The position numbers were made by a program, and so were the translations under genes. Below the pieces are notes generated by a model. It searched no databases and was not told the origin of the DNA. It saw only the letters and a program-made list of their open reading frames with translations. Below, piece after piece: positions 14,010-60,212 of a DNA stretch of 64,000 bases. The stretch is from Kiritimatiellia bacterium (GTDB taxonomy: Bacteria; Verrucomicrobiota; Kiritimatiellia; RFP12; UBA1067), in contig JAZOAC010000135.1 in NCBI GenBank assembly GCA_045595285.1, positions 23,822 to 87,821 on the forward strand, given 5' to 3'. Each line of letters opens with the position of its first letter. The first letter of the stretch is position 1.

Positions 14010-16634
14010 CTACCTTATCGAAATCTGGAATCCGGGGATGAACGGTTCAAGACCGCCATCAGCACCCACGCGTACGCGGAGCCTGTCGGCGCCGCAGCGT
14101 ATTTTGGAGATTGAACCGCTTTCAATGCGCAATGTCGCGCCGCTTCCGAGATTGTCCGAAACAAGAAGCGACGCACCTTCTTCGAAGGAGCAGGATACAA
14201 GCGTAAGCGTGGAACCATTCCCGAGAACCAACGGGGAATCCGCCTCCTTCACCACAAGTGCGCCGATGCTGTTCACGGTGCCTGACGCGGTCTCCAATCC
14301 ACCGCCGGCCAACCAGATCGCCGCCCTGGTGTTTTCGCCGGATTCCTGACGTTTGCGGCTTACCTTGAACTGGTCGCTTGCAGCAAGCCGCAAGACACCG
14401 TTGCTAACGCATATTTCGTTCGGAAGCGTGACATCCCCCGAGAGCTCCAATGTTCCGGTGCCATTCTTGACAACATGCACATTCCAGTATCCGTTCGCCT
14501 CCGTATTAAACGAATGATAATCAACGATATTCCCTGTGACGAAGAAATCCGAGCCGTCAGAAACATCATTTACGTTGAAAGTAAACGTCCTCTCTCCGTC
14601 ACCGCCCGCAGCCAAGATGACCAGACCACTCTCGCAAATGGATGGAGAATCGCCGGTCACTATCCAGTTAGCACGTTGTGCGTCATTCAGGACTCGTGCC
14701 GGCTTGCCCTTGATGTTTGCGCCATCCATAAACGTAACATAGTTCAAATATGTATCGGACTCCGTTGCACTTTCCTCCTCCTCGCGAATTGAGAGCGTCC
14801 CGCCAACAAGATCAATCTGATCTGTTGTAGCAGTCTGCAAAGCACCTTTCAGTTTAAGAACGCCATTTGTCATTACACGATATTTCGTCCAACGGGGATT
14901 TTGCACATGGCCGGAAAGTGTCAATGAGGCGTATGGATTTACGGTGACGACACTGTTGGAAGGAAATACAGTTGTGTCTACTGACCGCACCGCAAGCGGA
15001 GAGCTTTCACTTCCGCCGAATGTCAGGTTTCCGCCATTCACGGCGGTGCTTACAGCAGCATATACCACTCCTCCAGTAGCAAATCGCAGACGCAAATTTT
15101 TAATGCCCCTTGATGTTGCCGAATCCGACACCCCGAACCCTCCCAATGTCGTACGAGATGCCGTGGTATATTGTTTGTAGTTGTAAAAATCCAACCCGTA
15201 TGCAATCGATGGATCATCGACTTTCTTTATATACCAATTCCGATATCTTCCAGTGCGAGCCTCAATGTCGTTTCCATTCTGCTTCAAATCCAGCCCGATG
15301 CAATAGATATTGTTTTCATTTTCATCCTGAAACTGTACCGAACCGGCATTACCTGAAATATTCAGATTCACTCCATGCACATAATGCCCTTTATTGGCAT
15401 CATTATGATAGAAAGCATCCACCTCCACAAGATCCGAAAGATCATGGTTCTTTGCAATCGACGTGTAATAGTTTACTCCTCCGTCATCATATGCGTTAGG
15501 CATGTATTCCTCTCTTGCAACCGTAGCACGAGACCGGAATCTCAGGCCAATGTCTTTCACCCCGTGGCTGCCGCTTTCATCGGACGTCGCAAGGCTCCCA
15601 TATCGTCCCAACAAAGGCGAAGAACCTGCATCCGTGCTGAAATGCTCGAAGTCCATGCCCAAATGAACCTGATCGGCAAAGTAATCGTCTACAAGAACGC
15701 CATCCACATAATTTGTGGTAGAAATCTTATAGGTACGATATTTGCTCGTGTACGCTTCCACGTTTTCGCCGTTTTGCCTGAACTCCACAAGCACTCCCGT
15801 AACCAACGTGGGAGATGACTGCAACTGGAACTGGCATGTTTTTTCGCCAAAGCGACTACTTACGTGAGTATATTTAAGATTGTATGCCTGTTGTTCATCA
15901 AAGAGGTTTTTCCCGAAATGGTATTTCCCGGAAACCGAATCAAGATCGGCAAGGCTGCAGTTTTCCGCGACTACAACCCATTCAGCATCCGGGAGGTATC
16001 CGGCTCGAAAATGCGATGCGACTACGGCGTTTGTCACAATAATGTCGCCATTGCCTACTATCGTTTCGCCAATCGAGTCTCCCTCATATACGGAGTATTC
16101 GACCGGTGCGGCAGGCTTGCGCATGGCTATGAAACTTATGTTGAATGCTGAACGGGTACCTGCGGTGAGCGGACGTGGCAACACCCGAGGATTTTTCGCA
16201 TCAACCATTGCGTCAAGGTCCATGCCAAGTTCCACGTCAAGCGGGTTGAGCGAAGCCGCCCTAACAGTATAGGCTATAATGTCGTTTCCGCTTTGCACAA
16301 ACTTAACTGTGACCGAAGCTGTGTACGGCGTCGGCGTAGATGTGCGCGTTACACCCTGAAACTGCACAGTCGCCGACTCCACCCCATTTTCTGACGACCT
16401 GACGATGTTGTATGGTCGCAGAATCTCGTTGTGGAGATCCTGATTTATCTGCCACCGTTGCCCGGAAGACGAACCTTTATTAAAATAGGCGTATGCCGGT
16501 TCATAATCCGAAAGCTTCATACCTGTGAACACCGTATCCGGCTTGTCTGGATCCGATGAGAGCACCTCGTTTGAGGCAGCCTCAAAGGTAATGAAATCGT
16601 CCGACTGCTGAGCATTTGCAAGCAGCATAGTCAT
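14010..16634 (-). CDS. Large secreted beta-helix/PATR-like exoprotein, paralogue 1; signal peptide is encoded upstream of the first in-frame start (see poly-A tract)
   Basis: 874 aa. Three internal repeats of an unrecognised module, then a PATR-like segment (VKNGTGTLELSGDVTL ... NGVLRLAAS). Ends PGFQISIR. The frame is open upstream to TGA 16677-16679 and encodes KKKKIHLGLCVACSMTMLLANA. Confidence 0.8.
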   Translation of the reverse strand: MTMLLANAQQSDDFITFEAASNEVLSSDPDKPDTVFTGMKLSDYEPAYAYFNKGSSSGQRWQINQDLHNEILRPYNIVRSSENGVESATVQFQGVTRTSTPTPYTASVTVKFVQSGNDIIAYTVRAASLNPLDVELGMDLDAMVDAKNPRVLPRPLTAGTRSAFNISFIAMRKPAAPVEYSVYEGDSIGETIVGNGDIIVTNAVVASHFRAGYLPDAEWVVVAENCSLADLDSVSGKYHFGKNLFDEQQAYNLKYTHVSSRFGEKTCQFQLQSSPTLVTGVLVEFRQNGENVEAYTSKYRTYKISTTNYVDGVLVDDYFADQVHLGMDFEHFSTDAGSSPLLGRYGSLATSDESGSHGVKDIGLRFRSRATVAREEYMPNAYDDGGVNYYTSIAKNHDLSDLVEVDAFYHNDANKGHYVHGVNLNISGNAGSVQFQDENENNIYCIGLDLKQNGNDIEARTGRYRNWYIKKVDDPSIAYGLDFYNYKQYTTASRTTLGGFGVSDSATSRGIKNLRLRFATGGVVYAAVSTAVNGGNLTFGGSESSPLAVRSVDTTVFPSNSVVTVNPYASLTLSGHVQNPRWTKYRVMTNGVLKLKGALQTATTDQIDLVGGTLSIREEEESATESDTYLNYVTFMDGANIKGKPARVLNDAQRANWIVTGDSPSICESGLVILAAGGDGERTFTFNVNDVSDGSDFFVTGNIVDYHSFNTEANGYWNVHVVKNGTGTLELSGDVTLPNEICVSNGVLRLAASDQFKVSRKRQESGENTRAAIWLAGGGLETASGTVNSIGALVVKEADSPLVLGNGSTLTLVSCSFEEGASLLVSDNLGSGATLRIESGSISKIRCGADRLRVRVGADGGLEPFIPGFQISIR

Positions 16635-16663: not shown

Positions 16664-16673
16664 TTTTTTTTTT
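16664..16673 (-). repeat. Homopolymer A10 (T10 on + strand) between GTG/RBS and the signal peptide of exoprotein 1
   Basis: Counted directly: gtaTTTTTTTTTTctttcac. GGAG at 16691-16694 and GTG at 16678-16680. A9 or A12 would fuse the GTG to the long ORF. Confidence 0.95.
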
Positions 16674-22114: not shown

Positions 22115-24442
22115 TCACCGTACGATAACCCTGAAAGCGACCGGACGAAGATATCCGGCGGAATTCTGCGCAACCATCTTTCCGTTCACCCGAATGGCTC
22201 CAAGATGCGCGGAGGAAAGAGAGGCAGATTCACCAAACCTGATCGAACTGCGAGATGCAATGTCGGAAACGACAAAATTAACTGAACCATTCTCCGGCCA
22301 ATCCGTCGCAGGAGGCTTGATTGTGACGGAAGATCCTTCACCGAGTGTAATTGTCGATGCAACACCGGGAATCACCTCGCCCATCGTCAATGCGATTCCG
22401 TCCGCAATCTCAAGATTGCCGCCTGACAGCTTGAAATCCGTCGATTCGCTTGCCGATTTTGGATGGGCGAACCGCCATGTCCCGTCTGCAATCACGGTGG
22501 GCTGATACGGGGTGTACGCCGCCTCCATGCTGACGGTTCCGGGACCTTCCTTGCGGATGTAAGCGGATTTGTAGGCTTCAAAATCAGCATCGCCGACAGG
22601 ATAGAAAAGCCGTATCGGATTCGTAATCCTGAAATCAGCCTCCGCGTTGCCGGTCACGTCCTCGACCTCCATCACGATCGCGCTTGGATCTGCATCCTTC
22701 GCCGGAAACAGAGACATTCCGGTCGCACACACCGATGGAGCGGTGCCTGTAACATACCATCTGGGGTTCATGCCGTATCCGACACGCGGCGCCGCACCTA
22801 AAAGCTTCGCGCCATTCTCGAAATGCATATAGTTGAGATACAATCCGGCATCATCGTAATTCTCCTTGACGGACGTTCTCCCGCTCCAGTATCCGACCAC
22901 AAACGTACCTCCGTTCAGGCATACGCCGTATGTCGATGCCGCCGGAATGCACATTGACGCTCCCTGATACAGGAATCCGCCGTTCTCCACGACAAGTCGC
23001 CCCGTCTCCAATGAACCTGAAAGCACGGCATGACCACCACGCCCTACGACAAGCTGGCCTGACGACGGAATGCTTCCGGCGGAGAACTGCACCATCATAG
23101 GGGACTTGTCGCCACCGCTGACACGAACGACCGATCCCGTAGACATGGAGCTGCGTCCTTCAACCACGGCAACATGCGTCAACGCACCTTCCGCGAAGAA
23201 CAGCTTGAGACTGTGAAGCCCTACTTGTCCCCTATCGGTATAGGAACCGTCTTCATTCCTTTGTTCCGGTATTGTCATCCCCTGACACTCGGAGGACATC
23301 TTCTCAAAATCAATGTCGCCATATTGATAGGAACTTTCAGAAAAACCGTTCGCCCAAGGGGAATTGAACGAATAGGACGCTATGCAGGCCTGTATGTCAC
23401 GCCCCATCTGACGCAATCTGAGCAGACACCCCGTCTGGTAGCTGGAACTTACTTTGTTGTATATCTGCAAAGCGGCATAGGCACCGTTGTTCCGCCAATG
23501 GCTATATGCGGCGGGATCTTTATCGCCGCCTGTTCTGCTGCCGCACAGAATGGCGGTAACATTGGTCAAAGAGGACAGCAATCGGTCCTTGGAAACGGTT
23601 TTCCATTTATCATTGAGAAAGACATCTTTGCCGCACTCAACATCCAACGCCGAATCCGTACGCATCTGTGAAGCCTCGTAGACAATGTCCCCGTCGCCAG
23701 ACACCGCGCCGGAATACGTCTTCTCCTGAGGATTGCGTATGGTCATGACGCCGTCCACACGAAGGTTCCCGGAATATGTCCCCGGAGACTGTACGATTGC
23801 GGAAGCGCCCGTCGCAATGTATTCCGTATCGGAAGGGACTTCAATATCGCCTTCTATCGGAGAGGCCGTCTCTGTCGTTTCAGAAAGCCCTCCCAAACGG
23901 CGCAAAGCGATGAAGTCAACGCCGTATCCCTTTTCAAAGCCACCGCCTGCATCCTCAAGATCGTATCCGGCGCTGCCTTTCACAACTGTCTTGCCGTCGA
24001 AAAGCGATTCCATGTCCCTGCCGTACAGATGCGTGCCGGCCGCCACATAAACGCCGGACAGCCAGGCGTAGACATCGGCATCGCGCTGTTCAAGAATGAC
24101 ATCGAACTGATATGTCGTGTATTTACCGTCATATTTTCTGGCCGCCTGAAGAATGGTTTTCACCCTCTTCTTCCCGTCGGACTCATACCTTCTTTCTGCG
24201 ATGGGCATAAAATCGAACCGTCCGGCACCGTGCAGATAAATGTAATTACCCTTATATTTACTGTAAGATGCGTTTGCCGCAGCCCTTACGGCATAGTCGT
24301 CGACAGAAATGTTTTCAAACACCTTGCGGGCATTTGTCTTGGAGTTGTTTATCATCAATCCCCTATATGTCAAGGTGTACGGGGCTCCTCCCCGCAGGAA
24401 AAGCGGGACACTTGCGGCAATCAACAGCAACATAATTCGCAT
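22115..24442 (-). CDS. Large secreted beta-helix/PATR-like exoprotein, paralogue 2
   Basis: 775 aa. AAGGAG RBS, signal peptide MRIMLLLIAASVPLFL, and two copies of the module seen in paralogue 1. The C-terminal half is homologous to paralogue 1 (LYLNYMHFENGAKLLGAAPRV vs TYLNYVTFMDGANIKGKPARV). Ends VAFRVIVR. Confidence 0.8.
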   Translation of the reverse strand: MRIMLLLIAASVPLFLRGGAPYTLTYRGLMINNSKTNARKVFENISVDDYAVRAAANASYSKYKGNYIYLHGAGRFDFMPIAERRYESDGKKRVKTILQAARKYDGKYTTYQFDVILEQRDADVYAWLSGVYVAAGTHLYGRDMESLFDGKTVVKGSAGYDLEDAGGGFEKGYGVDFIALRRLGGLSETTETASPIEGDIEVPSDTEYIATGASAIVQSPGTYSGNLRVDGVMTIRNPQEKTYSGAVSGDGDIVYEASQMRTDSALDVECGKDVFLNDKWKTVSKDRLLSSLTNVTAILCGSRTGGDKDPAAYSHWRNNGAYAALQIYNKVSSSYQTGCLLRLRQMGRDIQACIASYSFNSPWANGFSESSYQYGDIDFEKMSSECQGMTIPEQRNEDGSYTDRGQVGLHSLKLFFAEGALTHVAVVEGRSSMSTGSVVRVSGGDKSPMMVQFSAGSIPSSGQLVVGRGGHAVLSGSLETGRLVVENGGFLYQGASMCIPAASTYGVCLNGGTFVVGYWSGRTSVKENYDDAGLYLNYMHFENGAKLLGAAPRVGYGMNPRWYVTGTAPSVCATGMSLFPAKDADPSAIVMEVEDVTGNAEADFRITNPIRLFYPVGDADFEAYKSAYIRKEGPGTVSMEAAYTPYQPTVIADGTWRFAHPKSASESTDFKLSGGNLEIADGIALTMGEVIPGVASTITLGEGSSVTIKPPATDWPENGSVNFVVSDIASRSSIRFGESASLSSAHLGAIRVNGKMVAQNSAGYLRPVAFRVIVR

Positions 24443-52353: not shown

Positions 52354-55300
52354 TCAACGCACACCTATTTTAAGATTCCTGATTCTTCCGGCGAAGAATT
52401 CGCCGCCTTTAGCGCCGCCGCCGACAGCGGTGTACAAGGGATAGAAAAGATCGCCGGAAACCGGCATCGCCTCTCCGCGCACTCCGTCGACCTCCACATG
52501 GGCCGTCCTCTGGTCGCACACGATCTTGACCTTCTGCCACTTGCCCGCCGCAATCTCCGGACCTTTCACGGTGACGGAAGCGGCTCTTCCCGACACTCGC
52601 ATGAACTTGTTGCGCAGGAAGAAGTGAGCGTACACCCGACCGTCGGCGACATATATCGATGCGCTGGTGGGACCGGTGAACACCAGCATCTGCCTGCGCT
52701 TCACATCGTCCGGATTGACCTCCATCTCAAGTTCGAAGCTGGCATGCACAGGCCAGATCTGCTGCGGAAGGCTCACATATGAGCATCCGGAGAACTTGAG
52801 CGCCCACGAGCCGTCCGGTTCCTTTACAAAATCCGGCGAACTCTTCTCCCAGTTCGGCGTCTTGGCGTTCAACGCAAGCACCGCACTGTTGCCGTAGCCG
52901 GTCTCACCCTGACCGAAACCGGTGACGAGCGGCACATTGCCGCCGAGGATGCCCCAGAGATTGCGGCCGCCCGGACACGGTATTACCGACCCACGGGATG
53001 GAGTAAACTCATATTTGACATCAAGAAAGCGCGAGCTGTCGGCGGAAATTTCAGACACCTTTTCGGAGTCGCGTTCAAACACATGGAACTTCACCCTCCT
53101 GCCCGAAGCTTTGCCGAGAACGAACGGCTTGGAACGCCAGACCTTATAGTTTTCATCAATCGTCTCAAGTCGCAAAATGGAATTGGGAAGCCCCGGTTTT
53201 AAGCGGAAAGTAAAATCGGCATTCTTCACCATCTGCGGATCAGGTATGCGTTCCTGCGAAAGGTAGCGCGTAAAGACAAGGTTAGTCCCCTTCTTTCCCG
53301 GCAAACCGACAACTTCGTCGCGTTCAAGATCGGCAACTGAAACCTTACCCTTGAAGTAGTCCTTCACATCCGCTTCAAAGACGGCGCTGTCCGCCTCCGC
53401 ACGGGGGATTTCGATCAATAGATAGTGAGGCCAGTTGTTCGCCATCGCGCCGGTGAGCACGAAGCTCGTCCCTTCGATTGCGATGTTTCCGCGAGTGCGG
53501 AACATCGACAGCTTTGCGTTCGGAGCGCCGGCAAGCTTAATCTTGCCGAACAAATGCTTCCCCTTGCCGTTGATCGCGTATCCCTGGAACGCGATGCGTA
53601 CGCGCACCGTGTCCGCATCGCGCACACTCTTTCCGTCGTACATGTAGATGGTATCGGTCTCGTCGATGACGGCAATCGACCTGAGACGCGCATCGCTCTT
53701 CACGCTTCCGCAAATCTCACGAACGCCATTTGCATCGGGCTCGCCGATGTTCAGCGTCCCCGCCGTACCCTTGGGCAGATCGCGCAAAGGATGCTTCGCC
53801 CACTTGTACTCAATGCAGCGCGTAGGACGCAGACCGACCGGCCACATGCCGTCCGAATGCACGCTGCGAAAGCCATTCGCCCAAACGGTGAGTTCCGGAA
53901 CGAGCGCCGGATTATCTATCAGCCGCGAGACATCCTCCTTGAACCATGCCGCCGCCAATCTGCCGCCCTTCAACTTCTGCGGCGGGAAACTGCGCACAAC
54001 TTTGCCATCGGGCGTCTTCCAGGCGAACGCCACGGTGATGTCGGCATTGTCAAACGTTCCGTCGGGAATATTGAGCACTTCGACTTCAAGCGGCTCGCCC
54101 GCCATCAGCTCCTTGCGGTAGGATACGATGAGGTTCGGAACAGACGCATCGTCGCCGGGGAACATATCGGGCTTAAGACCGTTTGCGATATCATGATAGT
54201 AGCGCATTATGCGCTGATTCGTGAAACCATGCGCGACCATCGGACGGAAACTCGTGTTCTCGTTTTCCTCATCCCATTCACAGCCGATCATGAAATCCGC
54301 ATTCATAGCCGCCATTGATCCCAGCATGTCGCGTAGCATGCGCGTACCGGTGCAGTCAAGTCCGTAGTTCCAACGATAGGAGTTCTCATGTCCAGCCGTG
54401 GCCAAATAACCCAGACATTTCTCCTTGAACTCAGGCTTGGAGAACACGTCATGCACCATAGGCACTAGCACCTTGTCGAAAAGCCACGGATTGTAACGAC
54501 GGTTGAAGATAGTCTCGCGCCCGTTATAGCACAACCCATCAAGAACCTTGAGTGCGCGTTCAAGCCGCTCTCGCATTTTCCGGAGCACATCGGCACTGTA
54601 GCCTTCGGTCGTCTCCTTGCGGTCTTCCAGACAGAGCATATAATACGGCATCACCAGGAATCTGTCGCCGAAACGCGATGTCAGTTCCTTCTTCAGCTTC
54701 GCATAGTGAGGAAGGTCATTTTCACGGATGGCGGGATAGCTGGTAATCACCACCTTCCCATTGATGCGGAAACTGTTCGGGGCATCCAATGCCTGCTTTG
54801 CACGGAAGATGCACTCTTCAAGAGGCAGTCCGCGCAAAAGCTCAACCAGTATTTTTGTCTCACAACCCGGTTTCACTGACGCAGGTAAAACCTCCTCGCG
54901 ATTCTTCGTGCATGTAAAGACTGCAAAACCGGTCTGCTTGCCCAAGCGCCCTATCTCAACTGTCTTCTGCCATCCCTTTTCATTGAGCCACGGGCCTTTT
55001 TCCACATCCTGGTTCACATATTTCAAACTCGAATCCTGCAAAAGCGGACGATCGTACCAATGGTGCAGAAAATCACTGCGATTGATACCGTACTTAAGCT
55101 GCGCCCGGACAAAGAAATCCGTTCTGCCGTTTTTGCGCACATAGCGGCTCTTCGACCATTCTGAGAGCAGTTTTTCCGCGTCGGCTGTAAGCTTCCAGTT
55201 TTTTGCCAAAAGACCATATTCGTCCGGAGGTGCGTATTCTGCGGAAGGCGCTTGTTCCCGGGCCCCCTTTGGAACGGAGCACGCAGAGTTTCTGCCAGTA

Positions 55301-55378: not shown

Positions 55379-57751
55379 TCAGCGAATGGATATTGCAAAA
55401 CCGTACTTCTTCAGATTGGCGATCAGAGTTACGGTACCGGCTTCAGTGACCTTGTCCAATTTGACCTTGTAGGAGGATAGCACGGAAGGACGAATAACCT
55501 CCAACAGATCAAGCACTGCCGCGCAACCGGAATCCACAGTCATCACGCCGAACGAATACTCATTCGCAGGCGTTTCATCGGCACATTCGACATATACCGG
55601 GATCTTCTTGGACGGATTGTCGTCAAGGAATGCAAGCGGCGAAGGCGATTTCACGTTGCAGATACCCTTCATCCGTGGTGTGCAGATCAAGCGCAAAACC
55701 GACTTCAAGCTTGGAAGTCTTGTTTGAGAACACGACATCCAGACCATCCAGTGCATGTGCGCTCAAAGGCTTCACCATGCCGCCCGCCACATAGAAAGTG
55801 CGCTTTGCGGCATCTTCAGGGATTTCGTCTGTTACTGTTCCTTCCGCATCAATAAAACGCAGATCGCCGCCAAGAGCAAGAGTACCGGAGCCTTCCTTGT
55901 ACATTTCTCCGTCAACCGTCAATTGCTGGAAGATCGCAAGTGACTTGTCTTCAGGCACGAGAAAACGTCCTTTCCAACGAATGAAGATGCCGCGGGTAAG
56001 CTCGGCTAGCGACATGCTATCCAGCACTTCCAATCTACTGGCTGAGTCAAGCGTCAAAGCATCATATGCAAATTCATTGCGGGGACCGCCAAGATTCTCC
56101 GCCCGCCGAACGACCAGGGAGGTGAAAGGATAGTTCATCTTAACATATGCTCTCGCATTCGTCGCACAGATTCTGCCGGCGAACCCCCTGTTGTCTCCAT
56201 CTAGACAAATTGTGGCGCCACATCTTGTTTCGGCGAAACCCTGCACTTGCAAAACCGACGCTTCATCGCCGGAGATTGGCCCGACAAGCCGGATTGTTCC
56301 GCTGTATTTTGGGGTCACTATTGTTCTGCCGGATAACATGAAATTGCTTCGTAAAGTCAAGTCACATCCGTCAAGACCTTGAATTTCCACACCGCCTTTC
56401 CCTCCGTCCAAAAGGAGATATGGTATCGTGTAATCTTTAATCCTGAAATATAATTTGGACGGATTTACAAATCGCATGGAACGTCCTGCAAACGACAGAG
56501 TGCCCTCAGGTGCATATCTTGTCGCGAAGCAACCTGTACCAGAACCTATTTTCCCTGTCTGGTATCTTATTCCGTTGCGAACCGGCTGACCATCACTCCA
56601 GTAATTGCCGTCTGTCTCCGCGACCACGGCGTCCTGCATTGTCATATCTATTTTATTGTTCTTAGTCTGCGTCACAAGAGGATAATAAGTAACATATATT
56701 GTCTTGGTCTTCCCATCATCGGAAACTTTCATTTCCACCGATGTTCCAGTCCTTATGTCGTAAGCCTCCTCCAGGATAAAGTCATCCAATGAGCATTGAC
56801 TGTCAACCGGCAGTGTCAGCAATGCATATCTGGTAGCCTCTTCAGGAGCCGAGGTCGGAGCGGTAAAATGTAAAACTGTACCTTTCCCCACCGTCAAACC
56901 ATTTAGAACCGCAAGCGAGCAATCGACAGAAGTCTTGAGCGTCGCACCTGTTTCAAGAGTAAGATTATCACGCACCTCAAAATTAGATACAGCAGACAAG
57001 TCGAGCGTTGCCCCACGCTTCAATATAATCGATCCAACAGATGTATTAACCTCAGCTTTAAAGACAGCGCCATTATCTGCGACAATCGAACCTCCAAAAT
57101 AAGTAGCCTTATCAGCAAGAGTGAATGTTGTGGTCAGAAGAGTTCCTGCTGAATTATATTGTGATGTTACAACCACCTCTCCAAGAAATTCACTTGCATC
57201 ACCCGAGAATTTCAACCCAAACGGACAACTTCCAAATTTGCCATTAACTCCTGAATGAACAATAATTCCACAATCTGATGCTGCATGAACATCATCTTTA
57301 AACGTTAAAGTCTCCTCTTGTTTACCGCTAAAAAGAACAAACGGAGCTGACTTCGGAGACGTAAAAGTCACTTTCCCACTTATTTTCGAACTCGCTGCAT
57401 TTACATGTAACGTACCATTTTCAAGAATCAAGCCACCACTGCCGGAATACGTCGCACTATAATAAGCAAAATAATCTCCAGCCTTTTCCTTATCCCCCAA
57501 TTTTCCAATCGTAAGCGAGCGAGCAGGTATGATCTCTCCACTAGATGTATAATATGTGTAACCTGACACTAAATAATCGCGATTCTTAACATCTTCTCCC
57601 TCTACCTCTGGCTCCCATGTAGCCCCTGCAAAACCAGTATCATGCGAATTATTCTCCTTAAGTCTCACATAATCCTCGCCTTCAGCAAATGCGAAGAATG
57701 GAATGAATGACATTGACAATGCCATAAGTACATTTTTTTTTCGCGGAACAT
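55379..57751 (-). pseudogene. beta-helix/PATR-like exoprotein, paralogue 3, disrupted twice (A9 tract after the start codon; +1 shift near 55665)
   Basis: ORFs 55623..57725 (700 aa) and 55379..55756 (125 aa, ending YGFAISIR like paralogues 1 and 2) form one gene. GGAG-N8-ATG lies at 57749-57763, followed by GAAAAAAAAA, and is out of frame with the 700-aa ORF. Confidence 0.75.
57733..57741 (-). repeat. Homopolymer A9 (T9 on + strand) between ATG/RBS and the signal peptide of exoprotein 3
   Basis: Counted directly: caTTTTTTTTTcgcggaacat. A10 would give MFREKKNVLMALSMSFIPFFAFA-EGEDY. Confidence 0.95.
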
Positions 57752-58009
57752 TTCAAAAACTCCTTTATTACCAAGAACTGGCGCTAATTATATCATATTT
57801 TGTCCGAGTGTGCCCGGGCAGACATGCACCGACTCAAGAACTTAAGAACTCACGACCTATCACACAAGTTGTTTCGCTGCCATACACAAGTCATTCTATT
57901 CATTTCGGCAGTCATGCGTCCCTCAACCTGTTATTTCGCCATAGTCTTGAACTTCTCAGTCACAGTGCGGACAACAAACTTCGGCCGCTGGAGCATAAAA
58001 TACACATTA

Positions 58010-58531
58010 TCATCGATAGACCTCCTCTTTCCATTCGTATGGTTCGGAATATGATTCACCAAGCATCGTCTCAACCATGAACCTGAGAACGCGCGCACCG
58101 TTGAAGAGTTCATGGTATCTTACACGTCCGGCAGATGCAACCGCCGCCCGTTCCGTGTCGTGAGCCTGATATTGCAGGATCTTCTCGGCGAGATCCACCG
58201 CGTCATCGAACCATACGGTCTCACGGTCCGTGAAGAATCGTTACATCTGGTTCTTCGAGGACTGGAACGTAAGTATCCCATAACCCATCAGATGTGCGAT
58301 GCGATCCGACGAATACCACTTGTCCCCTTCCTTGCGGTTCAGGTTGAGCGACATCTTGCTCGTGGCGAGAACATCTTCATAGTCCGCACCCCAAATGGAC
58401 GGCCTGTCCGCGCCAAATATGTCAATGCGCAGCTTGCCTTCAAGCTTTGGCCTAAGTTCCTTCCAAAAGCAAGACAAATAATAATCGACCAATTCAGGTT
58501 TACAGCATTTGATATTATCCCAATCCTGCAA
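58010..58531 (-). pseudogene. 3' remnant of a CgeB/Glyco_trans_1_2-like glycosyltransferase with an in-frame TAA
   Basis: ORFs 58241..58531 and 58010..58198 share one frame, separated by TAA 58241-58243 (…LTFQSSKNQM*RFFTDRETVWFDDAVDLAEKILQYQAHDTERAAVASAGRVRYHELF…). Only the C-terminal about 170 aa are present. Confidence 0.7.
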
Positions 58532-58537
58532 ATCTTG

Positions 58538-59896
58538 TTAATCCTGTCCTATTAACACTTCCCAATGGCCGTTTTTTGCAGCTCCAACGCGCCGTATTCT
58601 GCCGGCATCGGCAAGCTCCTTTATACGACGTGCGACCGTTCGACGCGGCACACCCATAAGCTTCGACAATTCGTCATAGCTGACAAACGGATCGGCCTTG
58701 AGGTTTGCGATAATTTGCAGTGCCAACGATTCGTTATTTACAGGATTTACAGTGCCACATTTTGTTGGTATCTCAAATATATCATCTGCCCTTTGAGTAA
58801 GTTCCTCAATTTTCATAATGCGGCTTTGCAGAAACCTCTCTATTGAGCGCAGTCTGTCTTGCGGCAAGTTATGGTATTTGTGCCGTTTGAAGCGGAAACC
58901 CTTCAACGCCTTCATGCGCTCAAGCATGCTTTTCGTAATGCCACCCGGAAATCCCAGCCACTTTGAGTATAGCGCAGGCTTTACTCGCGAAACATATTTA
59001 GCCAAATCCCAAAACTCGTCAAGTTTATCGCCAGGACGATAAAGTGCCGGCGAAAACAGTCCGTAACCATTATCGAATATGGGAGCTGCACCAACTATCT
59101 CATTTTTATCATTATCAACCAAATACCCAAAATTTCCGAGATGACGGTCGGTGTTGAAAATGAGTGCGTCAAAGAAGAAAATGTCGGCAAAGCGTTTGTC
59201 TTCCAGAGCTTCTGCCACGTTCATTATTCTTCCCGCTGGCAGATATCCAAACTTATCGCTAGTAAAAATATTGCAGGTCGAACACAAATAGCCTTTAAAC
59301 TTGCTTAGCGAATATTCGACATGATCAAGCCCCATCGCAGCAGCAATCTGTGAAGCATAATATTCGGAATAAGGCTCAAATCCCGTATTGGCAGCTCCAT
59401 CCGTTCCAGATTTGTAAAGAACGACCCTTCCATCGATTCTCCGCCAGCATTTCGCGAGCATTCCATTCGTCGAAAATTCAGGCGAAGATATCCAATCAAG
59501 GCACTCAATGGCAGACCCCATTCCGTTAAAAGCAGTGAGCGCAATCACCTGTGAAAATTCATTATCGTAAAGATTGCAATCCTTCCACGATCCCTTAAAA
59601 TCATTCGGCACCACCCAATGAACATCATTAAGCGATAAGCCGCGGCATATCTCGATTATGCCTCGAACATTTCGTGCATCAAGACCCGTCGCCGCCATTA
59701 ATGCGTCTATGTTACGGCGATTACGTGGCACCACACGACGAGACAGCCACCTCCAAAGATTTTCGTCAGAAACATCGCCCTTAAAATCAAGGGGCAGATA
59801 GCGATTATTCCCTTCATCTACCGAAACAATACGAACTCCTTGCGGTTCAATCCATTCAAACCGCAACAGTTCTTTATCTCGATGCTTCAGAATCAT
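58538..59896 (-). CDS. HipA-like Ser/Thr kinase fused to a C-terminal winged-helix DNA-binding domain
   Basis: 452 aa. Kinase core FNTDRHLGNFGYLVDN and PIFDNGYGLF. The C-terminus SYDELSKLMGVPRRTVARRIKELADAGRIRRVGAAKNGHWEVL is wHTH-like. Confidence 0.75.
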   Translation of the reverse strand: MILKHRDKELLRFEWIEPQGVRIVSVDEGNNRYLPLDFKGDVSDENLWRWLSRRVVPRNRRNIDALMAATGLDARNVRGIIEICRGLSLNDVHWVVPNDFKGSWKDCNLYDNEFSQVIALTAFNGMGSAIECLDWISSPEFSTNGMLAKCWRRIDGRVVLYKSGTDGAANTGFEPYSEYYASQIAAAMGLDHVEYSLSKFKGYLCSTCNIFTSDKFGYLPAGRIMNVAEALEDKRFADIFFFDALIFNTDRHLGNFGYLVDNDKNEIVGAAPIFDNGYGLFSPALYRPGDKLDEFWDLAKYVSRVKPALYSKWLGFPGGITKSMLERMKALKGFRFKRHKYHNLPQDRLRSIERFLQSRIMKIEELTQRADDIFEIPTKCGTVNPVNNESLALQIIANLKADPFVSYDELSKLMGVPRRTVARRIKELADAGRIRRVGAAKNGHWEVLIGQD

Positions 59897-60212
59897 TTAA
59901 CTAATCAACTTGAACTTACCCCGTCAAACATGCACATCTCAAATCATCTTTCACGAAAACATGGCGAATAATAGCACTTGCAGATATCAAAAGCAAGCGG
60001 GAAGTTGACGACTTTTGGATGACAAGGCAAAGTGAATGCGACAGCAAACTCTACCATGCCAAGACAACGGGCTTTTTGCCAGTTGTCTTTGATGAGAATA
60101 TGATTCGGACCGATTCTCAACCGATATTGTGCAAGGTAAGGACCCAAAGGCTATTGTAGCTCGCTAGGCATGCGTCCTTGCGCGTTCTTCAGCGGATTGG
60201 GGTTGCGAAGGT

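What the first reader, a model, noticed from the sequence alone, without database searches (positions are those of the whole stretch)
57720..57770. A second start-proximal homopolymer (A9) at the same position of the third exoprotein gene, again one nucleotide out of frame
The minus strand reads AAAGGAG-TTTTTGAA-ATG TTC CGC GAA AAA AAA ATG TAC. GGAG is at 57760-57763, the ATG at 57749-57751, and the A9 tract is T9 at 57733-57741.
This well-placed ATG terminates after about 30 codons. The 700-aa ORF is open upstream of its first ATG (57725) only as NVPRKKNVL, with no start codon in that stretch.
With A10 the RBS-linked ATG gives MFREKKNVLMALSMSFIPFFAFA|EGEDY, a canonical signal peptide.
It has the same architecture as 16664-16673, but the correction needed is opposite in sign (+1 here, -1 there). 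That argues against a single systematic basecalling bias. It is what independently switching contingency loci look like.
Caveat: this gene carries a second frameshift (next finding), so it may simply be decaying.
Basis: partly seen in the sequence, partly recalled or inferred. Interest (0 to 1): 0.7.

Follow-up and report, generated by a model that had tools for sequence, protein, structure and literature searches.

The report
Poly-A on/off switch in secreted-protein gene
A run of nine A's at codons 4-7 of a secreted-protein gene in a herbivore-gut Kiritimatiellae bacterium is one base short of the working length, and related strains carry 9, 10 or 11 A's, so it looks like a slippage-driven on/off switch; this genome's copy is off and also broken by a 14-base deletion.

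Summary
On the minus strand, AAAGGAG, 8 nt, ATG (57751-57749) and then an A9 run (57733-57741) put the start codon out of frame with a 700-codon ORF.

Related metagenome contigs from Kiritimatiellae carry the same gene at the same locus. I read the tract directly on 22 related contigs:
- A10 (in frame) on 14 contigs.
- A9 on 5 contigs, in three allele clusters; the window is a fourth A9 background.
- A11 on 1 contig.
- A8, where A9 is needed, on 2 contigs with a diverged leader.

In pairs of loci 98.5-99.4% identical over about 3 kb, the tract is the only indel. The all-A spelling goes against the genome's Lys codon preference (AAA 28%).

This fits a homopolymer phase-variation switch of the Mycoplasma hominis vaa type, in an uncharacterised, highly variable, mosaic beta-rich secreted protein.

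The window's copy also has a 14-nt deletion with microhomology at 55667-55671. It removes the conserved C-terminus, so this copy is decaying.

The link to the gene at 16634 is weak. The two proteins are not homologous, and relatives of the other gene lack its tract.

Reversibility and mixed lengths within one sample were not tested.

The parts
57787..57795 (-). Extended -10 promoter element TGATATAAT, about 36 nt upstream of the ATG
   Evidence: Read. TATAAT at the same distance is kept in all three leader types of related loci. The consensus scan did not call it because no -35 element matches. Promoter function is inferred.
57760..57766 (-). Shine-Dalgarno AAAGGAG, 8 nt before the ATG
   Evidence: GGAGTTTTTGAAATG is identical in leader types A and B. 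Similar AAGGAG motifs precede other genes in the window.
57754..57756 (-). TTG 5 nt upstream of the ATG. It is in frame with the gene body only when the tract is A11 (or A8, A14). It lies only 3 nt after GGAG, so it is probably a weak start.
   Evidence: The sequence is. The A11 locus L013 is open from this TTG. Its use as a start codon is inferred.
57749..57751 (-). The real start codon, ATG, of the secreted-protein gene
   Evidence: Homologues P0001-4 and P0008 start MFREKKNVL here. The DNA of 14 loci confirms it.
57733..57741 (-). A9 homopolymer covering codons 4-7 (GAA AAA AAA A..). The in-frame length is A10.
   Evidence: Census of related contigs: A10 x14, A9 x5, A11 x1, and A8 x2 in a leader that needs A9. 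It is the only indel between 98.5-99.4% identical loci.
57665..57751 (-). The 28-codon dead-end reading frame translated from the ATG in the A9 state (MFREKKMYLWHCQCHSFHSSHLLKARIM, then TGA)
   Evidence: (frame 1).
57684..57751 (-). Signal-peptide coding segment, split between two frames by the missing A. The restored sequence is MFREKKNVLMALSMSFIPFFAFA, with cleavage expected after AFA.
   Evidence: Its nucleotide sequence is nearly invariant across alleles whose bodies are only 42-49% identical in protein. The cleavage site is inferred from the n-h-AxA pattern; no predictor was run.
55623..57725 (-). Body of the gene as a 700-codon ORF (mechanical start MALSMSF). It is a beta-rich, allele-variable passenger region.
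   Evidence: The AF2 model of the 90%-identical P0001 has mean pLDDT 80 and is almost all beta strand. Only weak beta-helix matches were found in the PDB.
55667..55671 (-). Junction of a 14-nt deletion. Relatives read GAT-GAAGAGCTCCGCAC-GAAGGG, with GAAG microhomology at both ends. It shifts the frame and ends the ORF at 55623.
   Evidence: DNA alignment with L001, L010 and L018; sequence. All homologues read DEELRTKGICNV here.
55379..55670 (-). Stranded C-terminal coding segment (about 97 codons, ...KGICNVKSPSPLAFLDD...LKKYGFAISIR), now out of frame with the body
   Evidence: (frame 1). It is conserved in all full-length homologues.

Best explanation
The A-run is a hypermutable homopolymer in the signal-peptide coding region of a single-copy gene in a herbivore-gut Kiritimatiellae lineage. 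The gene encodes a highly allele-variable, beta-rich secreted or surface protein.

How it works:
- Slipped-strand mispairing during replication changes the run by one base.
- A10 links the ATG, which has a good ribosome-binding site, to the full ORF. This is the ON state.
- A9 ends translation after 28 codons (OFF).
- A11 ends the ATG frame after 23 codons and leaves only a badly spaced TTG in frame (OFF or very low).

The genome in this window carries the OFF (A9) allele. It has also lost 14 nt near the 3' end, which removes the conserved C-terminal ~95 residues. This copy is therefore a switched-off gene that has begun to decay, and regaining A10 would give only a truncated protein.

Shown: the tract, the frame arithmetic, the true N-terminus, the length polymorphism among strains, and the deletion.
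Inferred: a high, reversible switching rate, an adaptive role, and surface exposure of the product.
For: (1) Anatomy and frames.
(2) Homologues at the same locus start MFREKKNVLMALSMSFIPFFAFAE. In each case a 1001-aa Laminin_G_3 gene follows 20 nt downstream, then GH28-AXE1.
(3) Tract lengths read on DNA:
- A10 in L001-L012, L014 and L015.
- A9 in L016, L017, L018, L021, L022 and the window.
- A11 in L013 (MAG RGIG9083).
- A8 in L023/L024, where the in-frame form (P0031, MFREKKIALV) needs A9.
(4) The off-state genes other than the window's are intact through ...GFAISIR (P0012, P0014, P0027, P0045).
(5) The tract is the only indel in three close pairs:
- L017 vs L011: 99.0% over 3025 nt.
- L018 vs L010: 99.4% over 2944 nt.
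- L018 vs L013: 98.5% over 3145 nt.
(6) A9 occurs with both ATGTTC and ATGTTT leaders and on four allele backgrounds. Together with A11 and the type-C A8, this implies at least four separate slippage events.
(7) The all-A spelling goes against codon bias. AAA is 28% of Lys codons, and KK is written AAA-AAA in 1 of 39 cases. Yet the run is unbroken even in a leader that differs at the flanking codons (AGA GAA AAA AAA ATA).
(8) The gene body is hypervariable: 42-49% protein identity and unalignable DNA. The flanking gene is 74-98% identical in DNA (86-98% over alignments longer than 1.4 kb). Alleles are mosaics. This is typical of surface antigens.
(9) The Mycoplasma hominis adhesin gene vaa has the same design: a 5' poly-A, A8 ON and A7/A9 OFF, switching at 10^-3 to 10^-4, a single gene, and exchangeable cassettes (PMC524362).
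Against: - No reads were available. Mixed lengths within one population, reversibility and switching rate are untested.
- All data are consensus assemblies of short-read metagenomes, and long homopolymers are also where assemblies err. Other long runs near this gene vary among near-identical contigs too (T8/T9/T10 and T8/T6). That fits either real hypermutability or noise.
- The census is not unbiased. Most A10 loci were retrieved through in-frame protein calls.
- Two proteins starting at MALSMSF turned out to be A10 with a different gene-caller start (L014, L015).
- The window's own copy is broken independently of the tract.
- Surface exposure is not shown. There is no family hit and no significant structural match.
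Confidence: 0.65

Rival explanations
1. Sequencing or assembly error: the true tract in this genome (and in the other off-state contigs) is A10, and A9, A11 and A8 are homopolymer miscalls.
For: - Homopolymers of 9-10 nt are the classic site of indel errors.
- Among near-identical contigs the only indels are in long homopolymers, including non-coding ones.
- The window also differs from its closest upstream relative by A4/A3 and G3/G4 runs.
Against: - The off lengths recur in 8 related contigs plus the window, 9 of 23 tracts read. They come from different samples and assembly pipelines, and L016/L017 and L021/L022 are distinct strains carrying the same A9.
- Consensus errors at A10 in short-read assemblies should be rare, not roughly 10% of contigs. 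That figure is my estimate from the contig counts plus the lengths read.
- The 874-aa call of the other frameshifted gene in the NCBI record is identical to the window's ORF, so the window reproduces a deposited assembly.
- The second lesion here is a 14-nt deletion, not a homopolymer. This genome therefore carries genuine inactivating mutations in the gene.
Confidence: 0.12
2. Plain mutational decay with no switching role. The A-run is a by-product of a Lys-rich signal-peptide n-region, it is a mutational weak spot, and off-frame copies are simply dead or dying alleles.
For: - The window's copy has a second, irreversible lesion.
- More distant homologues (P0005, P0007, P0032) have ordinary N-termini without the run. 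The run is therefore not needed for the protein family.
- The upstream flank is rearranged. A HipA-like gene and a truncated glycosyltransferase remnant lie there.
Against: - All other off-state genes are intact over 763-831 codons. Their nearest relatives are A10 and differ by 1% or less, so the slips are very recent and repeated.
- The run is spelled against codon bias. It is preserved uninterrupted in 22 related contigs and three leader versions. Selection against a harmful weak spot would favour an AAG interruption.
Confidence: 0.2
3. Recoding rather than mutation: the A9 allele is still expressed. Either RNA polymerase adds an extra A on the run (transcriptional slippage), or the ribosome shifts -1 on A_AAA_AAA. 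Both routes would yield exactly MFREKKNVL...
For: - Runs of nine A or T are the length at which bacterial RNA polymerase slippage becomes significant. Thermus dnaX (A9) and Shigella mxiE use this (PMC1088944).
- The frame arithmetic fits: the body is in the -1 frame relative to the ATG in the A9 state.
- An 8-bp hairpin starts 7 nt after the run.
Against: - The commonest state in relatives is the in-frame A10. Standard decoding is therefore the norm and the out-of-frame layout is not conserved.
- The downstream RNA fold is no better than shuffles (z = -0.48).
- Recoding would rescue only a fraction of product. In this genome the product would still be truncated by the 14-nt deletion.
- At most, this makes the OFF state leaky.
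Confidence: 0.15

Closest known systems
Mycoplasma hominis vaa (variable adherence-associated adhesin), a poly-A translational phase switch
   Same: - A poly-A run in the 5' end of a single-copy surface-protein gene.
- One length is ON (A8 there, A10 here) and plus or minus one is OFF.
- The gene body varies between strains through exchangeable blocks (PMC524362; mosaic alleles here).
   Different: - A different phylum: a wall-less Mollicute versus a diderm Kiritimatiellae.
- The proteins are unrelated. Vaa is a lipoprotein with coiled-coil cassettes; this one is a beta-rich protein with a type I signal peptide.
- Switching rate and adhesion were measured for vaa. Nothing has been measured here.
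Neisseria pilC (poly-G) and opa (CTCTT repeats), both in the signal-peptide coding region. I name these from general knowledge; the review PMC3960869 was listed but I did not read it.
   Same: The repeat sits inside the leader-peptide coding region of an outer-surface protein gene, so frame changes abolish the whole mature protein. The genes are antigenically variable.
   Different: G or pentamer repeats rather than poly-A. These are multi-copy families (opa). The bacteria are pathogens with many such loci, whereas only this one is substantiated here.
Haemophilus influenzae lic1A: a repeat tract with start codons in different frames, giving strong, weak or no expression (general knowledge)
   Same: Two potential starts in different frames (ATG, and a TTG 5 nt upstream), so different tract lengths could give high, low or no expression.
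   Different: The repeat there is a tetranucleotide. The TTG here is only 3 nt from the GGAG and its use is unproven.
Programmed transcriptional slippage sites (Thermus thermophilus dnaX A9, Shigella mxiE T9; PMC1088944)
   Same: An A9 run on the coding strand at which RNA polymerase can add or drop an A and restore the frame.
   Different: In those genes the slippery layout is the conserved, functional state. Here the in-frame A10 is the common state and A9 is a variant.
Long mononucleotide repeats at gene termini in Akkermansia muciniphila, another PVC-superphylum gut bacterium
   Same: Long homopolymers are enriched at gene 5' ends, and phase variation was proposed for a gut PVC bacterium (PMC3048395).
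   Different: That paper only proposed phase variation from one genome. Here the length polymorphism is seen directly across strains.

Membership tests
Homopolymeric-tract contingency locus (translational phase variation) | A mononucleotide run of hypermutable length (8 or more) inside the 5' coding region | tested here: met
   A9 at 57733-57741, codons 4-7.
Homopolymeric-tract contingency locus (translational phase variation) | Changes of plus or minus one base toggle between the full-length ORF and early termination | tested here: met
   A10 gives the full ORF with the MFREKKNVL leader. A9 stops after 28 codons. A11 stops the ATG frame after 23 codons.
Homopolymeric-tract contingency locus (translational phase variation) | Tract length differs among very close relatives while the rest of the gene is intact | tested here: met
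   A8, A9, A10 and A11 were observed. The tract is the only indel in pairs 98.5-99.4% identical. Off-state genes are intact.
Homopolymeric-tract contingency locus (translational phase variation) | Mixed tract lengths within one clonal population, and reversible switching at a high rate | not testable with these tools
   No reads or cultures were available. Only consensus contigs were examined.
Homopolymeric-tract contingency locus (translational phase variation) | The product is surface-exposed or secreted and under diversifying pressure | tested here: inconclusive
   - The signal-peptide pattern is clear and conserved.
- Alleles are 42-49% identical while flanking DNA is 74-98% identical, 86-98% over alignments longer than 1.4 kb.
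- The fold is beta-rich, with only weak beta-helix matches.
- Localisation has not been shown.
Programmed recoding site (transcriptional slippage or -1 ribosomal frameshift) | The out-of-frame arrangement is the conserved state in orthologues | tested here: not met
   14 of 22 related contigs are in frame at A10.
Programmed recoding site (transcriptional slippage or -1 ribosomal frameshift) | A stimulatory RNA structure downstream of the slippery run | tested here: inconclusive
   A small hairpin lies 7 nt downstream, but the folding energy is no better than shuffles (z = -0.48).
PATR / autotransporter-associated beta-strand repeat proteins (TIGR02601), and paralogy with the gene at 14010-16634 | A match to the repeat model, or detectable homology to the other 'exoprotein' gene | tested here: not met
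   There are no Pfam or NCBIfam hits for this protein. tblastn finds only the gene itself. hhalign probability is 0.6%.
Pseudogene in this genome | An inactivating lesion that tract slippage cannot reverse | tested here: met
   A 14-nt deletion at 55667-55671 strands the conserved C-terminal ~97 codons.
Pseudogene fixed in all relatives | The same lesions are present in orthologues | tested here: not met
   All homologues read DEELRTKGICNV through to GFAISIR, and most are A10.

The most novel reading that the evidence does not exclude
This would be the first documented simple-repeat contingency locus in the phylum Kiritimatiellota, and the first in the PVC superphylum to show population-level length polymorphism.

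It consists of a conserved 'leader cassette' (RBS, poly-A and signal peptide, nearly invariant in DNA). The cassette drives a hypervariable, mosaic beta-helix-like surface protein.

The switch may have three settings:
- A10: ATG start, high expression.
- A11: TTG start, low expression.
- A9: off, leaky through slippage.

In one leader type, a variable promoter T-tract (T8-T10) may add a second control.
Probability: 0.45. Interest if true: 0.55.

Novelty: new member of a known kind. Interest (0 to 1): 0.45.

Why it matters
Phase variation through repeat slippage is textbook biology for a few host-adapted pathogens. It is almost undocumented in uncultured gut commensals, where invertible promoters get most of the attention.

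If confirmed, this locus would show that a ruminant-gut Kiritimatiellae lineage randomly switches a fast-evolving secreted protein on and off, perhaps in response to phage or host pressure.

It would also mark this uncharacterised protein family, and its conserved C-terminal tail, as likely surface determinants.

There is a practical point too. Frameshifts at such tracts in MAGs should not be 'corrected' automatically, nor annotated as simple pseudogenes.

Tried and rejected
- A pattern scan of metagenome contigs for the leader with a variable-length run found nothing. A protein-guided scan returned only two distant loci without this leader. An unbiased census from that collection was therefore not possible.
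- The genome-contig scan gave a single hit, L013.
- An exact look-up of the window's neighbouring 1001-aa protein, meant to identify the source and its sister strains, found no record.
- I assumed that every homologue starting at MALSMSF marks an off-state tract. This is wrong: L014 and L015 are A10 with a different gene-caller start. Only tract lengths read on DNA were counted.
- Pfam and NCBIfam gave no family for the protein or its stranded C-terminus.
- The structural search of the PDB gave no significant match. The best E-value was 0.05, and all the weak hits are beta-helix proteins.
- Homology between this gene and the 16634 gene was rejected.
- The consensus promoter scan did not flag the conserved TGATATAAT, because no -35 element matches.
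- A strong frameshift-stimulating RNA structure downstream of the run was not supported.
- A literature search for Kiritimatiellae together with phase variation found no paper.
Full report
**1. What is in the sequence**

The minus strand between 57800 and 57660 reads TGATATAAT (57795-57787), then about 20 nt, AAAGGAG (57766-57760), TTTTTGAA, and ATG (57751-57749). It continues TTC CGC G, A9 (57741-57733), TG TAC TTA TGG....
- From the ATG the frame is MFREKKMYLWHCQCHSFHSSHLLKARIM, ending at TGA 57667-57665.
- The long ORF (55623-57725, 700 codons) lies in the -1 frame relative to the ATG.
- Upstream of its first ATG that ORF is open only as NVPRKKNVL behind a TGA, with no possible start codon.

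**2. Is it more than chance?**

A run of nine A/T in 64 kb of 55% G+C DNA is only mildly unexpected. There are 3 overlapping matches against 0.61 expected, and 7 of 100 shuffles do as well. The placement is what stands out.
- Of 17 A/T runs of six or more, only two exceed seven: T10 at 16664-16673 and this T9.
- Both are poly-A on the coding strand, just after the start of large genes with signal peptides.
- In 153 kb of related loci, long homopolymers lie almost only at this gene's 5' end and in its upstream spacer.

**3. What the gene is**

The protein has no Pfam or NCBIfam family. A search of 5.8 billion proteins found only nine clusters. The only hit that carries a name is from a Kiritimatiellae MAG, and named cluster members and the one genome hit, MAG RGIG9083, are also Kiritimatiellae. 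RGIG9083 comes from water-deer rectum.

The homologues sit at the same chromosomal position as in the window. A 1001-aa Laminin_G_3 protein follows 20 nt downstream, then a GH28-AXE1 enzyme. They are therefore alleles of one locus.

Five of the nine clusters begin MFREKKNVLMALSMSFIPFFAFAE, which is exactly the predicted A10 reading.

The alleles have an unusual conservation pattern.
- The first ~100 nt are 91-95% identical in DNA, and the last ~700 nt are 73-85% identical.
- The middle cannot be aligned as DNA and is 42-49% identical as protein.
- The neighbouring gene is 74-98% identical in DNA, 86-98% over alignments longer than 1.4 kb.
- Blocks near the C-terminus are shuffled among alleles, and a ~20-residue insert comes and goes.

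An AlphaFold model of the 90%-identical P0001 has mean pLDDT 80 and is almost entirely beta strand. The PDB search gave no significant hit, but every weak hit is a right-handed beta-helix: autotransporter passengers, phage tailspikes, and a capybara-gut beta-helix domain. I read this as a secreted or surface beta-helix-like protein under diversifying pressure. Localisation is inferred, not shown.

**4. Tract lengths in relatives**

I read the run directly on 22 related contigs.

| Length | Contigs | Notes |
|---|---|---|
| A10 (in frame) | L001-L012, L014, L015 | most were retrieved through in-frame protein calls |
| A9 | L016, L017 | allele cluster 4; two different strains |
| A9 | L018 | allele cluster 8 |
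| A9 | L021, L022 | allele cluster 2; two strains; upstream flank 99% identical to the window |
| A11 | L013 | MAG RGIG9083 |
| A8 | L023, L024 | diverged leader ATG TTT AGA G-A8-TA GCA; the in-frame form needs A9 (MFREKKIALVAV..., P0031) |

- Every one of these off-state genes is otherwise intact through the conserved ...KKYGFAISIR end.
- In three close pairs the tract is the only indel:

| Pair | Tract states | Identity | Aligned length |
|---|---|---|---|
| L017 vs L011 | A9 vs A10 | 99.0% | 3025 nt |
| L018 vs L010 | A9 vs A10 | 99.4% | 2944 nt |
| L018 vs L013 | A9 vs A11 | 98.5% | 3145 nt |

- A9 occurs with both ATGTTC and ATGTTT leaders and on four allele backgrounds. Adding A11 and the type-C A8 gives at least four independent slippage events.
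- From contig counts per protein and the lengths read, I estimate that about 10% of assembled copies are out of frame. This is a rough figure. The sampling is biased towards in-frame calls, and two MALSMSF-start proteins proved to be A10 (L014, L015).

**5. Signs that the run itself is maintained**

In the window's genes AAA is the minor Lys codon (28%), and Lys-Lys is written AAA-AAA in 1 of 39 cases. The chance of spelling E-K-K-N as GAA AAA AAA AAT from codon frequencies is about 1.5%. Yet the run is unbroken in all 22 related contigs. That includes the type-C leader, where the codons on both sides differ. A single AAG would remove the instability, and none is seen.

**6. Mechanism**

The best reading is a homopolymer phase switch.
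- A10 joins a well-spaced SD-ATG to the ORF (ON).
- A9 gives a 28-codon dead end (OFF).
- A11 gives a 23-codon dead end from the ATG. It also puts a TTG, 5 nt upstream of the ATG and 3 nt after GGAG, in frame, which is probably weak.

The OFF state may leak. In the A9 state the ORF lies in the -1 frame, so two events would each yield the exact A10 protein: a -1 ribosomal shift on A_AAA_AAA, or one extra A added by RNA polymerase. Nine A/T is the length at which polymerase slippage becomes appreciable in many bacteria (PMC1088944).

Two facts argue against programmed recoding. In-frame A10 is the common state, and the downstream RNA fold is unremarkable (z = -0.48).

**7. The window's own copy**

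Besides A9, it lacks 14 nt (GAAGAGCTCCGCAC) that all relatives have. GAAG microhomology flanks the deletion, at 55667-55671.
- The deletion shifts the frame and ends the ORF at 55623.
- The conserved last ~97 codons (55379-55670) are left stranded in another frame.
- This lesion is not a homopolymer, so it is a real mutation.
- Regaining A10 would give only a truncated 709-residue protein.

The copy fits the usual fate of a contingency gene left OFF: secondary, irreversible damage.

**8. Relation to the 16664-16673 tract**

The arithmetic is right: that tract needs A9 and has A10.
- The two proteins are not homologous.
- Every close relative of the 16634 protein (96% identical cluster) starts (V/M)KERIHLGL with no poly-Lys.
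- Only P0091 starts after the tract. It is identical to the window's ORF and comes from an NCBI contig of 90,545 bp.

That tract therefore appears private to this genome, and I saw no polymorphism for it.

**9. Rivals**

- Assembly error (about 0.12). It is disfavoured because the off lengths recur across samples, strains and assemblers, and because this genome carries a genuine deletion. It cannot be excluded without reads, because other long runs also vary among near-identical contigs.
- Decay without a switching role (about 0.2). It is disfavoured by the intact off-state genes, their A10 nearest relatives, and the codon-bias argument.
- Recoding as the main mode of expression (about 0.15). 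It is disfavoured because A10 predominates.

**10. Comparison with known systems, and novelty**

The design is nearly the same as Mycoplasma hominis vaa. That gene has a 5' poly-A, A8 ON and A7/A9 OFF, switching at 10^-3 to 10^-4, a single copy per genome, and exchangeable cassettes (PMC524362). It also resembles the Neisseria pilC and opa repeats in leader-peptide regions (general knowledge).

Homopolymer phase variation was proposed for Akkermansia from a single genome (PMC3048395). I found no paper linking Kiritimatiellae to phase variation.

The verdict is a new member of a known kind. The mechanism is ordinary. The lineage, the protein family and the population-level support from metagenomes are new. 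Interest is moderate.

Noticed in passing
L001:5928-5936 and the equivalent position in L003, L004, L005, L006, L009 and L015 (about 73 nt upstream of the ATG in 'type B' leaders): A T-run over the -35/UP-element position of the promoter is T8, T9 or T10 among contigs that encode the identical 796-aa protein. L001 and L006 have 0 mismatches in 2929 nt and differ only by this indel. It may be a second, transcriptional, variable tract for the same gene.
   Followed up: partly
window 14010-14030, 22115-22135, 52354-52374 and 55379-55399 (C-termini of four secreted proteins): Four large signal-peptide proteins end in a similar alternating hydrophobic tail closed by Arg...GFQISIR...AFRVIVR...NLKIGVR and ...GFAISIR. 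The 16634 family ends NLEPYxxGxxISI[RK] throughout. This may be a lineage-specific C-terminal sorting or anchoring signal; no family matched.
   Followed up: partly
window 16664-16673: The A10 run at the start of the 16634 gene is absent from all close relatives, which start (V/M)KERIHLGL. Only the NCBI protein identical to the window's ORF (P0091, 90,545-bp contig) starts downstream of it. The tract looks private to this genome.
   Followed up: partly
window 57752-60000: The upstream flank of the locus differs among strains, with at least three contexts: a complete glycosyltransferase gene, a DNA pol III tau/DHOD-B electron-transfer subunit context, or, as here and in L021/L022, a HipA-like kinase-HTH gene (58538-59896) plus a truncated glycosyltransferase remnant (about 58241-58531). 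The locus sits at a rearrangement boundary.
   Followed up: partly
P0044 (JGI contig, allele cluster 8): One allele has its first ~100 residues replaced by an unrelated N-terminus (MTLRPIQTFYKGYKFRSRLEARWAVFFDACGVKWEYEPEG...). This is either an insertion or rearrangement in the gene, or a chimeric assembly.
   Followed up: no
window ~57797-57800, and the glycosyltransferase remnant about 720 nt further upstream (near 58520): Compared with the 99%-identical upstream flank of L021, the window has A4 instead of A3 just upstream of the -10 element, G3 instead of G4 in the glycosyltransferase remnant, and lacks one copy of an 8-nt tandem repeat (TCCCGCTG). These are small slippage-type differences in non-coding or decaying DNA.
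   Followed up: no
window 57707-57725: An 8-bp hairpin (AUGGCAUU-GUC-AAUGUCAU) begins 7 nt after the A-run and covers the internal ATG at 57725. The region as a whole does not fold better than shuffles.
   Followed up: partly
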